Under the pieces are notes generated by a model. It was not told the origin of the DNA, did no database searches, and saw nothing but the letters and a program-made list of their open reading frames with translations. A DNA stretch of 64,000 nt from Camelus ferus. Lineage: Eukaryota. The translations under genes and the position numbers were made by a program. The stretch is from the NCBI RefSeq assembly GCF_009834535.1, contig NC_045696.1, positions 23,810,001 to 23,874,000 on the forward strand, given 5' to 3'. Below are positions 9,645 to 50,466 of the stretch, in pieces (position 1 is the first letter of the stretch; each line of letters opens with the position of its first letter).

Positions 9645-9807
9645 GGGGGGAGGTTATAGCTTAATGGTAGAGTGCCTGCCTAGTATGCGTGAGCTCTTGA
9701 GTTCAATCCCCAGTACCTTCATTAGAGAAAAAAAAAAGATAAATCAATTAATAAACTAATCTAATTACCTCCTCCCTCAAAAAATTAAAAAAAAACCCCC
9801 AAAGTTT
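9645..9807 (+). mobile_element. tRNA-derived SINE (Vic-1-type, camelid)
   Basis: GGGGGGAGG start, Pol III A box (TATAGCTTAATGG) and B box (GAGTTCAATCCCC), A-rich tail, degenerate TSD aaaaaaattgtta/aaaaaaatggcta. Confidence 0.85.
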
Positions 9808-10448: not shown

Positions 10449-12585
10449 AAACTATATTTTTATATTTCTAAAACAAACAGACTTATGATGGATCATTTTT
10501 CTTACATTAATTACACAGGTTATAGCTTCTTAGTTGGAGTTTAAGTGACAGACACATAACCAATGTCAGTTTATAGATAAATGGCCTTAAAATCTCGATG
10601 TAGAAGATCTGTAGAAACGACATGTGCAACCTCAAGTTTTTAAAATGGCCTCTGTGCTAGTTTCAAATGGAGACCAAGAAAGCAAGGTCATTTTTAATCT
10701 CTACATGCATCTTGCTTTCCTGGCTCAACACTAATCGTTCGTTGTGTTCTGCATATTGGAAGGGAGAAGATGAAGGATATAGAAGAATTCACTTTGAAAA
10801 CATGTACTCAATGTTCCATATCCAAACACTCCCAGGGGATTAAATAATCAGAAAGCCCCACATCATTTGCATTTTAATGGATAAAAATAAGAGTTGAAAC
10901 ATTTCTTTACACTTAAACTACCATGAAAAATCATGTGTAGTTAATAGGACTGAAGTGGTGGGGAGGGGAATAAGAAATGGGGACTCTATAAAATTTAAGG
11001 GAAATTTATTTCTTTTACAGAATTGGAGCTGGGTTGATTAAGTCAAGGTGCCTGCCTCTAGAGACATTTTCCTAATGAAAAGTACTGTAACTTCAGACCT
11101 TTCACATTTTCCACGAATAGATGTCATTACTCATTATCACATTTATCATTACTTGTAAAACAGTGAGGTGGCAGCAGGGGAAAGGACTAAAATAGAGTTG
11201 AAAAAAATTTGGTTCTGGCTTAGGTAATTTAAATGAAGGCTTTTTTGCAAAAGCAAACACATCCTTACTCCATCGTACCTTTGGAAAACTGACACAAGGT
11301 AGTGGACCATTTTATGAAAAGAAAAGTGACTACAGACTCTCTCCACCCTCCTCTGCTTCTGAATTAGAAATGATAAAGAGCTTGACTGGTTAAATTCTGA
11401 AACAGATAATGAGTTTTTAAAGTGGTAATTACTGAATCTCCTTCTTTCTAGAAACCCATTAACAGGTATCTCTTTAGTCATACAAAAAAATCTTCATAAA
11501 TATTGAATTGTGCTATCACATGTACAAGTTTCTTTCAAATTATTGAATCTGACTAGTTTCACAGGAACTATTTGCTATTAATTGGTTTTAAGATTTAATC
11601 AAGTAAAGACATCATTTATTAATTCCAGTTCGAAATGCCGGGAAAAAGATGTAACCTTATTATCTTTCATCAAACCTCTTCAAATGTTCATATTGGTTAG
11701 AAATTGAAAACAAAAGGTGGCTCTCTGCCTTGTGAATTTCTTCAGGTTCAAAGAACAGAATTTATCAATGGGAAGCTACAAAAATGCTCAGAGTGAAATC
11801 TCACTGCCTAACTATAGAATGAAGAGGGTTGGACCAGACTTGCAGCAAGGACACAATGGCTGTTTGTTGAACTCTTAATTAGTGTAGTAGGTAGGAAGAG
11901 GAAAGTAAACCCTGTATTACTGTCAAAGTCAAGCAGCTTCACATTTCCAGTCAAGAGTATATCTTGACTGTGTTCTTCAAGTACCAAGCAGTAATGAAAA
12001 GATGAAGAAGCCCCAGATATACAATCTTAGATGTTAAAAAGTAGGAAGCCTTGTAGATGGGGGCGTCCCATAGCTGGCTGAGTTCTGTCAGCTGCCTAAA
12101 GTTCTATCAGCTGTTGACAAAGTCCCCATTCAGAGAACATAGACGTTTCCAGATGGAATTCTTACATGTTACCTGCCACCAACTGCTCAGGATTGTGAAT
12201 TGTATCTCAGATACTACAGAAGTTGAGAATGTATTGCACCCATAAACAGAAAACATACTATAAATCTATAGATTAGATTCATTTTCCCATTAGGAAAATG
12301 AATGCCTTAAGTCAAGAAGTTGTTATGTATAAAATAGGCAAATAAAGATTTCTCAAATTATTATGAACAGATTTATTATTAGAAACAACCCTGTTTATAA
12401 TGTAGAGTATTTTTATAAGATGAAATCTGACTTAAGAAATGTATTTTTATTAACTTTCTCTGTAAGTTTTTTGATGGTCTACATTCTATTTCCCATCTTA
12501 ACTGCTGGACTCTTTTCTAACTTATCTGTTGCTAACAATTTTTCAATAAAAACATAACAGATGAAATTTTCAGATTGTATTTTTT

Positions 12586-12917
12586 TATTATTTTTTTTAA
12601 CACTTTTTATTGATTTATAATCATTTTACAATATTGTGTCAAATTCCAGTGTAGAGCACAATTTTTCAGTTATACATGAACATATATATATTCATTGTCA
12701 CATTTTTTTCTCTGTGAGTTACCATAAGATCTTGTGTATATTTCCCTGTGCTATACAGTATAATCTTGTTTATCTATTCTGCAATTTTGAAATCCCGTCT
12801 ATCTCTTCCCACCCTCTGGCCCCTTGGCAACCACAAGTTTGTATTCTATGTCTATGAGTCTGTTTCTGTTTTGTATTTATGCTTTGTTTGTTTGTTTTTG
12901 TTTTTTTTTTTAGATTC
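12586..12917 (-). mobile_element. Young 5'-truncated L1 3' end
   Basis: Poly(T) head, L1 3' UTR, exact 15-bp TSD CAGATTGTATTTTTT at 12571-12585 and 12918-12932. Confidence 0.93.
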
Positions 12918-13306
12918 CAGATTGTATTTTTTAATTATTCAATTATTCAGAAGGCTGAATGGAGATAGGAAATCAAATTTATTAGCAAGCATTCTTATTA
13001 AAGACTATGATGGTGTTCTGTAGCTTTCTATTTTTTTTAATGATCTTGAACATTATTTGAACTGAAGCTATTCAGGTAAAGGGGCAGTAACTTTTCTTTC
13101 TCTTCATGTTATTTACATAATCAAATTAGAAGACCCTGTGTCACGTTTGTGGGGTTACCAGAAGGTGGAGTGATAACGAGGACCACATTTTCTCTTCCTG
13201 GTTCCCCATCACAAAGTCAGGATATCATCAAAAAATATCTAGACTATTGCTAATCACAACTCTAGCTCTGGGAAACCTTGAAGAATTGAGATTAAAGATT
13301 CCATAA

Positions 13307-13856
13307 CATGGATGCTCCTGGAGAATGTCATTCTAAGTGAAGTAAGCCAGAAAGAGAAAGAAAAATACCATATGAGATCGCTCATATGTGGAATCTAAAA
13401 AACAAAAACAAAAACAAACAAACAAACAAAAACAAAGCGTAAATAAAGGACAGAAATAGACTCACAGACAGAGAATACAGACTTGTGGTTACCAGGGGGG
13501 TGGAGGGTGGGAAGGGATAGACTGGGATTTCAAAATTGTAGAATAGACTACACTGTATAGCACAGGGAAATATACACAAAATGTTATGATAATTCACAGA
13601 GAAAAAAATGTGACAATGAGTGTGTATATGTCCATGAATAACTGAAAAATTGTGCTGAACACTGGAATTTGACACAACATTGTAAAATGATTATAAATCA
13701 ATAAAAAATGTTAAAAAAAATAAGAAAAAGAAAAGAACCCAGTGGACAAACGATAATAAGAGGTAATTCAAAAGAAATGGTAACTGAAATAGTCAAGTGA
13801 CACACGCAAGGTACTACCTGATAGATTTTAAATAAATTTTAAAGTGTGAAAAAAAA
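13307..13856 (+). mobile_element. Young 5'-truncated L1 3' end with a 3'-transduced tail
   Basis: L1 3' UTR to about 13735, then about 110 bp of other sequence and a second poly(A); exact 13-bp TSD AAAGATTCCATAA at 13294-13306 and 13857-13869. Confidence 0.93.
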
Positions 13857-37422: not shown

Positions 37423-38049
37423 CTTGCTTGTGAACAAAACTTGAGATCAGGAAATATGCTTTCCTTGTTTTTCTAATTTTACTTTGGAACAACTCTTTTC
37501 TCAAAAACAAAATGAAACCTTTTAGTAAAGGACTCAACACAGTGCAATCAATGTGTAATCAATTGATTCATGCCATATTGGCAGGAAATTTCTATTCTTC
37601 ACATTAGAAGGTAACCAGTTTTTATAAGTAAGGTCCAGGTGCAAATCATATAAATCGTATTTGCATTATCATTTTGTTCTCTTTGTGTTTTACTTCAGCT
37701 GTCTGACTACAAATGCTTCCAAGTTTTTGTCCTTTCTGATTTTTCAGCTGGTAAAGCTGCATGCAAATTAAGCTACACCCAAAGATCTCGGTCCTGAAAG
37801 CGGGAGGCCTGGGGAGAAAAATATTTTTACAAAGCTCTTCAAATTGAAGAATATTTATTATCCTGAAGTCTATCAGTACTGTGTTCAAATAAACACGGGA
37901 GTAGCCATAGAAAACTTGAGAGATGATAAAGTGTCAGGGAAACTAAATCGTTTGAATTTATCTGCACGAGTGCTCCAAATCTTTCAGTTTGGGAAGAATG
38001 TCTCCCTGTTGCTTTCTCATCTTTATGATAATTTGTAGTTGGTTTCCTC

Positions 38050-38720
38050 CTTCCATAGCTCCAGCATTCCGTTGACCCAATGTGATTTCTCTTTTATTAA
38101 TGTTTACCCTCCTTCCTACTGAGTCTGCCGCGATTTCGTTCATGAGCTTTTTCATTTCTTTGTAGATAATACCCGTACTGACCAAAAATGAGCTCAAATC
38201 CTGACTCATGGAGGCCCCCCGGACACTCTCCTATGGAAAACTCGGCTCCGGCTCCTTGATTGCGCTGCCATTTGTCACTATTCTTTGTTTACAGTCCTTG
38301 AGCCAGTTTTCAATCCATGCGATAGCACTTCTGTCCAAATCCATTTGTATTAATTTTTCGAGTCAGATTTCGCAAGGCGCTGCATCCGATGGATTAGGGA
38401 GGTCCAAGCATATTACACCTATCTGTTCCCTGCATACAGTGATTTTGTAATTGGATTTATTTTATTTTTTTTAAGTGAGGATGGGGAGGCGATCGCGTTT
38501 CGGCGCGATCTTCCAGCGCTGTGGCAGTGCCTGGTGAATATTCATGGCTGGAGGCATTGACGAAGGCGCGAGTTTAATATCGGTGATGAAGTGAGGATTT
38601 TTTTTTTTTAATGGGACTGAAATGCCAGCTGCTCCTCACATTCCTCGCACTGGATTGTCTAACGAGGCGGCCCCCTTTTCAGCAGTTCCAGCCAGGAATC
38701 TTTGAGTCATTTTTGATCCT
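38050..38720 (-). mobile_element. Ancient CR1-clade LINE reverse-transcriptase remnant
   Basis: Minus-strand translation of about 38450-38245 gives ITKSLYAG/QIGVICLDLPNPSDAAPCEI*LEKLIQMDLDRSAIAWIENWLKDCKQRIVTNGS. This is colinear with CR1 RT '[34 protein letters not shown]...GLD...WIKNWL.GR.QRVVVNGS'. Flanking similarity is weaker and the outer limits are uncertain. Confidence 0.8.
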
Positions 38721-40074
38721 CTTTTATCCTTTGATCAACATTTGATCTGTGGAACGAAGCCAAATTGTGAGAGTCCATCAAAGTCCCTCTCCCTGGCGCC
38801 CTGCTTCCCTGTCTTCTTCCTGCACCAGGCTATTAACGCTCCCATAGCCCTGGACTCCTTTCCAACCAGCTGTACCTCTGCACTTCTTTGTTCTTTGGTA
38901 GAAGGTGGCCACTGAGCTGTTTCAAATTGTTTTAAAAGTCAGCTGGTCAAGTCGACCCTAGTGCACCAGCCTCATTACTCAGGCACCTCGCCTTCTTAAA
39001 GTTGTTCAGAAGCCTTGGCTCCTGTGGTCCCCCATCTTCAGAGGGCTGGGAGCAGAGGCAGCTGTCTGGAATTTGCTGCCACTTTTTCAGGTCTTAAGAC
39101 ATTTAATCTCAATAAAAATCGAGCGGCTTTTGTGTATTGGTGGTCGAGGCAAAACGGTGGGCAGGGGGAAACATGGAGTTCTTGCCTGGGCTATCTAAGA
39201 GTATTATCATTTTAATAGTTCTCAGAGTCTTGTGCTATTTTAAAACAAAAACAGTTCTAGTCTAACTCTCTGAATCTGCCAATTTTTTCCCCCCTGCAAA
39301 TCACTCTGATGCAAACTCTCAAAAAGCTAAAAAGCAGCACTGTCAGGAAAGGATTCTAAGTATTATGTGTAACCCTTCGTTTGTATTTTAATGTGTCTCT
39401 CCTTCTCCAATGAGAAGTCACTGGTTTCTCACTTTGCCTCATTTCTTCAGTGCTTTGCTCCCATCTGACTGTCTGAACTTTGCACTGTGCTGCCCTCTCA
39501 AATCTCTGCCACCCCCCAAATGAATTTTATAATATTTGACCTTTTAATCTAGCAAATCAGGCCCTTCTGTAATTAAATTAAACTTTTCATGGGATGAACC
39601 CAACTATCAAATGTCATCTTATCTTCAGCGGCAGAAGTTGAAAAAGAAATATCAGACACGTAGACAAGAAGGAGTCAAAACAGATCATTAACACCAGACT
39701 AAATGCCTCTAGACTGTTTTACAATGATTTCATGCTTAGCTGTTGAAAATAAGCTGTCAAAAACTATGCTGCTGTCTGTTCAAGGAATTCGAAGTAATAA
39801 ACCAAATACATTTGCTTGGAAGACTGTCTGAAACAGCTCTGAAAAACATTAACAATTTCGTGTGGACATATGAATGCTGGAATGGATGGAATTGCTGTTT
39901 TTGAGACAGGAAGCGCTAAATGTGGACGTGCTACATGATGTTCATAAGAATGTCCTTTGCTAGTAAGCACTAATGGAAAATGAGAAAGAACCAATCAGAA
40001 TATACAGAACAACAATAAATATTAGAAGATGTAGCCCAAATTGCCATTAAATACTAACATAAATTTTAACTCCC

Positions 40075-40169
40075 TCTTAAAAACACTGTAAACATGTATT
40101 TAAACTTACAATTAAAAAATCTTAAAAACACTGTCAAAACGTATTTAAACTTACATTTAAAAAAATCTT
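40075..40169. repeat. Tandem duplication, 45-bp period, about 2 copies
   Basis: tcttaaaaacactgtaaacatgtatttaaacttacaattaaaaaa repeated with few differences. Confidence 0.9.
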
Positions 40170-48635: not shown

Positions 48636-49295
48636 CAGTCCATGGATCTATGAAGATTTTCTTTTTCTAAAGCAAAATGATGAGAATTAAGAGGATCATA
48701 TTTAAATAGAATGCGAGGAACTTTTATCAATGAGAAACATAGACTAATTTTTTGGAATAACATGTCAGAAGATAAATGACATCCAAATCCAAGGGGAAAC
48801 TATTTTGTTTGGGCAGAAAGAGCTGGGTGCTTTTTGGATCTTTTCAGTTTTAAGCTTTTTAGTTTCAGTGGGTTTTTTTTTTTATTACCTGTTTAATGAA
48901 TACTGCTTGTCTTTCTCATAGATACATTAATAAATATCTTTCTGGTTTTAATTTCCCTTTCTAAGGTCTTTCATCCTCCAGTGACCGAAGCTCTTTTTGC
49001 ATCTTATGAGGTTGAACTTGGCTTTTCTAGTGTTCATTTTCCTTGGCTTTCACAGGGAAAATTTGTATCTGTGATTTTAGGTTTGCTCAGCATCTTTTCT
49101 ATAGAAGAAAATGCTTTGTAAATGGCAATTCAATAGATTGATTCATAAGCAGTGTGTACAGAACTGACAACAAGTTTTAAATGAGAAGAAACTGTTCAGG
49201 ATCATAGTATTAGTGATAAACCTAATGCTATTGAAAGGTTATTTTTCGATAAATACTGCCATACGTTACAATCTTCTATCATGGGAAAAGTATTC

Positions 49296-49404
49296 AGAGT
49301 GGCCAACTCATTCCAGTTTGCCTACGACTTGTTTTTAAGCACTAAATTTCCTGCATCCTCAGACAGCCTTTGGTCCTGGCGAACCGGTATAGCCGGTCAC
49401 CCTA
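49296..49404. mobile_element. MER81-like hAT-Blackjack MITE
   Basis: TIR-like ends CAGAGTGGCCAACT ... GCCGGTCACCCTA. Confidence 0.75.
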
Positions 49405-49984
49405 GTTGTGTTCCTATTAGAACTTCTGTTTCAGCAGGTCAGAAATAGACACAAGGTTACTGGTAATAATTTCATAAAAATATTTTATAGATTGTTGTAT
49501 CCCTGTCTTAAAACATTTCTAGGTACATAGTAGGTTTTCAATAAATATTTGATAACAGAATAACTGAAGTATAGCTTACCGGTGTCTAACTAACGCAGAA
49601 GGAGAAGATGTATCTCACTGGTAGATCATCCTACACTGTTAGGGACCATCTCTTCTAATGCACATGAGGTAAAATAGCTCTCCGTCTGCAGGATGTGCGG
49701 ATGCACCAACAAAGTACGCTGAATCAACCAAAGGCACGGGCGTTCCAAAATGTGAACATGAGTCAATTTCTGCTAAGTGTTGTTGAAACTTACTCCCGAG
49801 TTAAAAAAGTCAGATTGCTTGTTTATTGGGTTACTCAAAGCGTCTTTCTGACATACCCAAACTTCTGTAATTACCAACTTCACCAAGCCCCTAATGAGGA
49901 TTGTACATGTACACCCAGCTCTGATAAAGCAGGAGAGGAAATGCATGCTTGAGCAGGGACTCCGAGGCTACCTGCGCAGTCAAT

Positions 49985-49999
49985 CCAGCAGAGGGCGTC
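49985..49999 (+). promoter_or_regulatory. Candidate CTCF site
   Basis: CCAGCAGAGGGCGTC fits the CCASYAGRKGGCRS core; GCGCAGT just upstream resembles the upstream module. Confidence 0.5.
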
Positions 50000-50387
50000 G
50001 GTGTACCTATGCAAAGACCAGGGCTCACCTGGGATGAGCGGGGATGGTCAGAGAGACGCCCAGGGCCTGTGTGTAAGTGCTGAAAACTAACAACAGTGGG
50101 AAAGTATTTCATGCAGAAAAGCGCTGAGACCATCTGATACAAACGCAACACCATCTTGCAAAAGTCGTGGTGACCCGGTGAACTCATAAATGTATGAAGT
50201 CTGAGAAGTTTATTTTAATGTAAAATAAAGCAAAAACAATACTCCAGTAAGCTGTCATTCCTGAGGACCAATGCACCGCAAAGCTCATTTTAGAAAAACA
50301 CCGTGTACTCCAAACCAAGAAAAAGAATGACTGTATAAAGTCTAAAGATGTATCTAAAGACAATCTCAATTATTTATCTAACTTCTA

Positions 50388-50466
<79 letters not shown>
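50388..50466. repeat. Compound (GAT)n(AAT)n microsatellite
   Basis: Directly visible. Confidence 0.95.

What the first reader, a model, noticed from the sequence alone, without database searches (positions are those of the whole stretch)
38050..38720. CpG-rich ancient CR1 reverse-transcriptase remnant: candidate exapted conserved element
Seen: the minus strand keeps about 65 colinear codons of CR1 RT (VICLDL...LEKL...WIENWLKDCKQRIVTNGS), with weaker matches upstream (RHCHSAGRSRRNAIA, compare QHGFTKGRSCLTNLIA) and downstream (EIAADSVGRRVN, compare KFADDTKLGG). The supplied ORF track does not show this core. CpGs are visibly denser here than in the rest of the window. Known: CR1 activity in the placental lineage ended very early, and neutral copies lose CpG and recognisability, whereas X-LINE/CR1-derived conserved elements are frozen by selection. 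Inference: this copy may be a constrained regulatory element such as an enhancer. It is unlikely to encode a protein, since it has a stop, a frameshift and a degenerate catalytic motif.
Basis: partly seen in the sequence, partly recalled or inferred. Interest (0 to 1): 0.72.

Follow-up and report, generated by a model that had tools for sequence, protein, structure and literature searches.

The report
Old LINE fossil beside motif cluster
A broken scrap of an ancient retrotransposon's reverse-transcriptase gene is really there and has counterparts in other genomes, but it is only mildly conserved, and the best-kept sequence is an 85-base cluster of Wnt-type and AP-1-type binding motifs beside it, so this looks like an ordinary, untested distal enhancer.

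Summary
The fossil is real: 54 colinear codons (minus strand, 38422-38261, one stop) match CR1-like reverse transcriptases. CpG excess is real (28 CpG, o/e 0.81 against 0.21). Translated counterparts from five sequence groups in other assemblies, read as orthologues, break the frame at different places, so it is non-coding. 'Frozen by selection' is not supported: the core is only 54-70% identical in amino acids (about 0.25 substitutions/site), the CpG-densest part diverges fastest, and codons touching this genome's CpGs differ more often than others. The best-kept piece is 38691-38775, mostly outside the given coordinates, with no detectable CR1 homology; it holds an AP-1 site and three TTTGATC words, one a full TCF site. 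Best reading: a modestly constrained distal enhancer with a TCF/AP-1 core and a CR1 fossil as its CpG-retaining shoulder, probably in the NRIP1-USP25 desert (inferred). Exapted CR1 pieces number about 20,000 in human (PMC3428314). No nucleotide orthologues, chromatin or RNA evidence were obtained. No earlier scan note matched it.

The parts
38261..38422 (-). CR1-like LINE reverse-transcriptase fossil, supported core: 54 colinear codons with one in-frame stop
   Evidence: pooled divergence to counterparts 0.25 (0.22-0.28)
38051..38260 (-). Downstream continuation, probably the decayed rest of the RT; profile match reaches 38174, catalytic FADD motif not recognisable above chance
   Evidence: profile to 38174; p 0.26 and 0.14; divergence 0.37
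38431..38600 (-). CpG-densest and fastest-diverging zone (11 of 28 CpGs); holds an A/T run and a weak QHGF-like motif
   Evidence: (0.58; inflated by indels)
38601..38690 (.). Moderately kept linker, origin not shown
   Evidence: divergence 0.25; no CR1 profile match
38691..38775 (.). Best-kept block; candidate enhancer core
   Evidence: 62 of 74 aligned columns identical, divergence 0.09 (0.05-0.15); 24/28 and 22/28 in the two counterparts that span it
38703..38709 (+). AP-1 motif TGAGTCA
   Evidence: motif as in PMC2943592 abstract; residues of the 5 counterparts that cover it are compatible with its retention
38728..38737 (+). Full TCF/LEF motif (CCTTTGATCA); the only CCTTTGATC in the window
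   Evidence: fits the extended TCF4 motif of PMC2943592; residues identical in the 2 counterparts that cover it
38712..38747 (+). Three TTTGATC words within 36 bases (38712, 38730, 38741); the outer two are one mismatch from the TCF core
   Evidence: 0 of 150 order-3 Markov windows reach three within 45 bases (word chosen after seeing it)

Best explanation
A CR1-like LINE inserted here before the lineages sampled split, and decayed; a 54-codon piece of its reverse transcriptase is still readable (shown). It makes no protein (shown for this genome; inferred generally). It lies inside a roughly 750-base stretch (about 38050-38780) that is modestly slower-changing than its edges (partly shown), whose best-kept part is an 85-base block with one AP-1 site and a TCF/LEF cluster (motifs shown, binding inferred). 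Most likely the stretch is a distal enhancer: beta-catenin/TCF and Jun/Fos bind the block, and the fossil forms a weaker-constrained, CpG-retaining shoulder that escapes some germ-line methylation because it flanks an open site (inferred). The likely target, from position only, is a gene bordering the desert, NRIP1 or USP25 (inferred from two unchecked scan notes and recalled human coordinates).
For: RT homology. Counterparts share non-CR1 sequence on both sides (37879-38883), as orthologues would. Stops and frameshifts differ among them. Divergence by zone: block 0.09, core 0.25, linker 0.25, edges 0.48 and 0.55; core slower than the rest at p<0.05 in 5 of 7 counterparts. The block was not in the query, so it was not selected by the search; it is slower than the rest in P0003 (p 0.001) and P0049 (p 0.0003). 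AP-1 plus TCF is a known composite in beta-catenin-bound regions (417 of 2168; PMC2943592). Highest CpG density of the window. No Pfam domain in 203 of 206 frames of 62 aa or more that were scanned.
Against: All divergence comes from amino-acid letters of ORF calls in unnamed assemblies; no nucleotide orthologue was obtained (3 loci, 28-38% identical, none orthologous) and the species, hence the neutral rate, are unknown. The core was the query, so its slower rate is partly selected. Only two related counterparts (61% identical to each other) span the whole block, and after allowing for scanning it is borderline: 2 of 120 uniform-rate simulations at 0.25 reach P0003's best window, and 15 of 120 at 0.25 or 1 of 120 at 0.33 reach P0049's. 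A search aimed at the block found no further counterpart. Each edge estimate rests essentially on one ORF. Whole-length divergence of the group I take for primates is 0.34-0.37, about the neutral camel-primate distance as I recall it. No chromatin, binding or RNA data.
Confidence: 0.45

Rival explanations
1. Only the 85-base block is functional; the CR1 fossil is a neutral bystander that keeps some CpGs because it lies beside a hypomethylated site. It is then not exapted.
For: No CR1 homology in 38480-38900 (best real score -1.5 bits, shuffles up to 4.0). CpG-touching codons change faster. The core's slow rate is partly selected by the search. About 95% of annotated human CR1 bases are not conserved (PMC3428314).
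Against: The linker 38601-38690, not in the query, is as slow as the core (0.25), so slower change seems to reach from the block towards the fossil.
Confidence: 0.3
2. The whole stretch is neutral: an ordinary old L3/CR1 copy; rate differences are noise and search bias, and the TTTGATC words are a decayed short tandem repeat.
For: Whole-length identities of 52-63% for the long counterparts match uniform divergence of about 0.22-0.33, within recalled neutral distances between placental orders. Block significance is borderline after scanning.
Against: CpG o/e four times the window's; block 84% identical against 43-45% at the edges.
Confidence: 0.13
3. The stretch is a promoter or exon of a non-coding RNA; a plus-strand exon near 38476-38533 has a strong pyrimidine tract with AG and a GTGAAT donor-like word.
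For: Sequence as read; weak CpG island at 38471-38700.
Against: This is the fastest-diverging zone; the donor-like word is a poor match to consensus (recalled).
Confidence: 0.08
4. The RT core was, or in some lineages still is, a domesticated coding exon.
For: 8 of 12 counterpart ORFs, from 4 of 5 groups, carry the core in one open frame; replacements are slightly more conservative than neutral (p 0.04-0.36 in 4 tested).
Against: Stop in this genome; frame broken in 4 of 12 counterparts, in 3 groups; the library holds only ORF calls, so open copies are selected; frames on either side of the core differ among counterparts.
Confidence: 0.04

Closest known systems
Conserved non-exonic elements exapted from CR1 LINEs (Lowe and Haussler 2012, PMC3428314; passages seen)
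   Same: Old CR1-like fragment, non-coding, with signs of slower change; 19,644 such elements among 60,731 human CR1 fragments.
   Different: Constraint on the CR1-derived bases themselves is not shown here; the best-kept block is not demonstrably CR1.
Anciently conserved TE protein fossils (Frith 2022, PMC9004415; outline, section 10 and passages seen)
   Same: Protein fossil of a CR1-like RT in gene-poor DNA; 204 pre-amniote CR1 fossils are counted there.
   Different: Those show extreme conservation and non-mammalian orthologues; this one diverges about 0.25 in the core and no non-mammalian orthologue was identified. The main text does not name chr21, NRIP1 or USP25; supplements were not searched.
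Human CR1-clade Repbase families L3, L3b, CR1_Mam, CR1L, X1/X2/X5-X8/X17-X21_LINE (Kojima 2018, PMC5753468; passages seen)
   Same: The fossil probably belongs to one of these.
   Different: No nucleotide consensus library was available, so the family is not assigned.
TCF + AP-1 composite Wnt-responsive elements (Bottomly et al. 2010, PMC2943592; abstract and passages seen); clustered-TCF enhancers CREAX and c-Myc-335 (PMC8421206; passages seen)
   Same: AP-1 motif 19 bases from a full TCF motif, with two near-matches.
   Different: Motifs only: no binding or activity data; only one of the three words is a full TCF core.

Membership tests
Non-LTR retrotransposon RT fossil | Significant protein homology to RVT_1-bearing LINE ORF2 | tested here: met
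CR1 clade (L3 / CR1_Mam / X-LINE) | Closer to CR1-clade RT than to L2, Crack, Jockey, RTE or L1 | tested here: inconclusive
   Named hits are bird, turtle and frog RTs, 17-25 identities over about 53 residues; that these are CR1 is recalled; no labelled clade panel or tree was run
CR1 clade (L3 / CR1_Mam / X-LINE) | Nucleotide match to a Dfam/Repbase consensus, and the CR1 3' tail | not testable with these tools
   no such library
Active or domesticated RT gene | Open frame with the FADD/YADD catalytic motif | tested here: not met
   stops; FADD segment p 0.14
Exapted conserved non-exonic element | Orthologous presence across mammals | tested here: inconclusive
   counterparts in five sequence groups share both flanks, but species and synteny beyond 1 kb are unknown
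Exapted conserved non-exonic element | TE-derived bases evolve slower than neutral | tested here: inconclusive
   core 0.25 against edges about 0.5, but the core was the query and the neutral rate is unknown
Ultraconserved / 'frozen' element | Near-identity across placental mammals | tested here: not met
   31-39 of 57 core columns identical in six full-length counterparts
CpG island (200 bases, GC at least 50%, o/e at least 0.6) | Sequence criteria | tested here: met
   marginally, 38471-38700 only; the whole finding has GC 45%
CpG island (200 bases, GC at least 50%, o/e at least 0.6) | Unmethylated in the germ line | not testable with these tools
   no bisulfite data
Wnt-responsive enhancer (TCF/AP-1) | TCF core and AP-1 motif close together | tested here: met
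Wnt-responsive enhancer (TCF/AP-1) | TCF/beta-catenin binding and Wnt-dependent activity | not testable with these tools
   needs ChIP and reporter assays

The most novel reading that the evidence does not exclude
The unit is a Wnt- and mitogen-responsive long-range enhancer of NRIP1, in the desert that carries the bowel-disease risk variants, built from two parts: a TCF/AP-1 core and a CR1 reverse-transcriptase fossil that serves as a CpG-rich platform whose CpG density, not its letter sequence, is what is kept, with single CpGs turning over among mammals.
Probability: 0.1. Interest if true: 0.58.

Novelty: new member of a known kind. Interest (0 to 1): 0.27.

Why it matters
As one more CR1-derived fossil with mild conservation it matters little: about 20,000 are catalogued in human (PMC3428314). 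The useful result is the relocation of the signal to a short TCF/AP-1 block, a cheap and precise target for lookup and reporter tests. If it regulates NRIP1 it would tie Wnt input to a nuclear-receptor co-regulator in a desert whose disease variants are reported to contact NRIP1 (PMC9002814, one passage seen). It is also a caution: a readable CR1 RT and high CpG do not by themselves show constraint.

Tried and rejected
Direct Pfam scan of the fossil and six frames: 0 of 7. Solved-structure search: best E 0.55, chance. Word-index search for longer proteins: none of 154 candidates. No whole genome held, so copy number elsewhere in the genome is untested. Metagenome scan: 3 of 259 candidate stretches confirmed, 28-38% identical, no orthologue. 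Search aimed at the conserved block: 0 of 1 candidate. Sequencing runs: 20 of 24 rows hold the stretch or part of it; no RNA holder listed, which is no evidence on expression. No read evidence was obtained, so splicing, transcription and polymorphism stay open. CR1 origin of 38480-38900: not detected. GC-biased conversion on this genome's own branch as the source of the CpGs: not supported, 4 weak-to-strong against 9 strong-to-weak among 23 branch-specific columns (low power). Rfam: only a tRNA-like SINE head at 9650-9721; ARAGORN none. Three microsatellite frames of the 206 were not scanned against Pfam. Literature: 7 searches listed no paper on this element, judged from listings and the passages read; the element has no name to search by and no supplements were opened, so this does not show it is unannotated; it may well be in UCSC/ENCODE tracks.

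Full report
Setting. The window is AT-rich (GC 37%), CpG-depleted (o/e 0.21) DNA with dispersed repeats that look like L1 3' ends and a tRNA-headed SINE at 9650 (the names L1 and camelid Vic-1 SINE are recalled). None of 203 scanned frames, of 206 with 62 aa or more, has a Pfam domain. Unchecked scan notes call the genome a camel's and place the KCNE1/KCNE2 region 14.2 Mb before the window and a ROBO2 intron 2.5 Mb after it. With recalled human coordinates this puts the window near human chr21 15.3-15.9 Mb, the NRIP1-USP25 desert. That placement is inference, good to a few hundred kb at best.

The observation. Pfam does not see it (0 of 7), but phmmer over 1.84 billion proteins returned 35 hits: 8 closer ones without any Pfam domain, and 27 others of which 24 carry RVT_1. 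Named hits are bird, frog and turtle RT-bearing proteins; that these are CR1 ORF2 is recalled, not tested against a labelled panel. The two core segments lie at offset 0 from each other and beat 300 of 300 shuffles; four other segments, the QHGF-like and FADD-like ones among them, do not (p 0.14-0.68). The supported fossil is therefore 54 codons, 38422-38261, with a profile tail to 38174. CpG excess is real: 28 CpGs, o/e 0.81, reached by 3 of 1267 sliding windows; island criteria are met only at 38471-38700.

Counterparts. The closer hits (8, 2 more, plus cluster members) are ORF calls from unnamed assemblies. They align to the window far beyond the CR1 core, from 37879 to 38883, through changing frames, and fall into five groups by pairwise identity. 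I read them as chance ORF calls over the orthologous site in other mammals; species and wider synteny are unknown. The core is open in 8 of 12 and broken in 4 of 12, at different places, and it has a stop here. Since the library holds only ORF calls, open copies are over-represented. Replacements are slightly more conservative than neutral (p 0.04-0.36 in 4 tested), too weak to argue for coding.

Is it constrained? No nucleotide orthologue was obtained, so I estimated divergence from residues of 10 counterparts under a neutral HKY model (pooled columns are not independent, and P0039 was left out of the pools as redundant). By zone: 37879-38050, 0.48 (one ORF); 38051-38259, 0.37; core, 0.25; 38431-38600, 0.58; 38601-38690, 0.25; 38691-38775, 0.09 (0.05-0.15); 38776-38890, 0.55 (mostly one ORF). 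Simulation shows that the pipeline is roughly unbiased (identity 0.59 at 0.25, 0.51 at 0.33). The core is slower than the rest at p<0.05 in 5 of 7 counterparts, but it was the query. Whole-length values for the group I take for primates are 0.34 and 0.37, close to the neutral distance as I recall it. So the fossil is at most moderately constrained, not frozen.

The CpGs. The zone with 11 of the 28 CpGs diverges fastest (partly through indels near an A/T run). Codons touching this genome's CpGs are identical in 64 of 159 columns, against 462 of 779 for other C/G-bearing and 270 of 450 for A/T codons (the difference is not significant within the core or within that zone alone). At several sites most counterparts show the TpG or CpA product. 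A GC-biased burst on this genome's branch is not supported (4 against 9); in the five other groups weak-to-strong changes exceed strong-to-weak (60 against 34 pooled), but ORF calling favours GC-rich copies. The simplest reading is reduced CpG decay with turnover, as beside a hypomethylated site, rather than selection on single CpGs (inference).

The block. 38691-38775 was not part of the query, yet 62 of 74 columns are identical. It is slower than the rest in both counterparts that span it (p 0.001 and 0.0003, zone drawn after the fact); allowing for scanning, 2 of 120 simulations at 0.25 reach P0003's best window, and 15 of 120 at 0.25 or 1 of 120 at 0.33 reach P0049's. These two are related, and a search aimed at the block found nothing more, so this is moderate evidence. 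The block holds TGAGTCA at 38703 and TTTGATC at 38712, 38730 and 38741; the middle one is the only CCTTTGATC in the window; 0 of 150 simulated windows cluster three such words (word chosen after seeing it). The AP-1 word and the middle word fit the AP-1 and extended TCF4 motifs that co-occur in 417 of 2168 beta-catenin-bound regions (PMC2943592, abstract and passages). No CR1 homology is detectable in 38480-38900.

Mechanism. Best reading (0.45): a distal enhancer with a TCF/AP-1 core, in which the CR1 fossil is a weaker-constrained, CpG-retaining shoulder. Shown: the fossil, its broken frame, the motifs, the CpG excess. Partly shown: rate differences. Inferred: binding, activity, hypomethylation, target gene. 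Rivals: block functional and fossil a bystander (0.30); all neutral (0.13); non-coding RNA promoter or exon (0.08); coding exon in some lineages (0.04). No read, chromatin or methylation evidence was obtained.

Comparison with what is known. Human has 19,644 conserved elements among 60,731 CR1 fragments, covering about 5% of their bases (PMC3428314 Table 1), so exapted CR1 pieces are common and most readable CR1 sequence is not conserved. Frith counts 204 pre-amniote CR1 protein fossils (PMC9004415 section 10); this one lacks the extreme conservation described there. The Repbase family (PMC5753468) could not be assigned. Variants in the NRIP1-USP25 desert are reported to contact NRIP1 (PMC9002814), and an NRIP1 upstream enhancer is tabulated in PMC12628035; neither is shown to be this element. 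Seven paper searches listed no study of it; supplements, where lists of fossils would stand, were not opened.

Verdict. Observation partly confirmed, interpretation partly supported. New member of a known kind; interest 0.27.

Noticed in passing
window 49240-50310: Second CpG-retaining stretch (27 CpGs; 200-base island criteria met at 49991-50190), with a TGAGTCA at 49759; no Pfam hit in its frames. Possibly another regulatory element.
   Followed up: partly
window 12582-13729: Two L1-like 3' ends in inverted orientation (185 bases 91% complementary, and 125 bases 81%), about 500-780 bases apart.
   Followed up: no
window 9650-9790: tRNA-headed SINE (Rfam tRNA 38 bits); resembles the camelid Vic-1 SINE (recalled).
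   Followed up: no
window 38455-38540: Plus-strand pyrimidine tract ending in AG followed 58 bases later by a GTGAAT donor-like word: possible cryptic exon inside the CpG-densest zone.
   Followed up: partly
window 38202-38208: A second AP-1 word inside the fossil's downstream part; 14 such words occur in the window.
   Followed up: no
window 50388-50466: Compound perfect microsatellite (ATG)12 followed by (ATA)15.
   Followed up: no
window 40075-40169: 45-base tandem duplication, 90% alike.
   Followed up: no
L001-L003: Three metagenome contigs with distant RT-like matches (28-38%); not orthologues, not examined.
   Followed up: no
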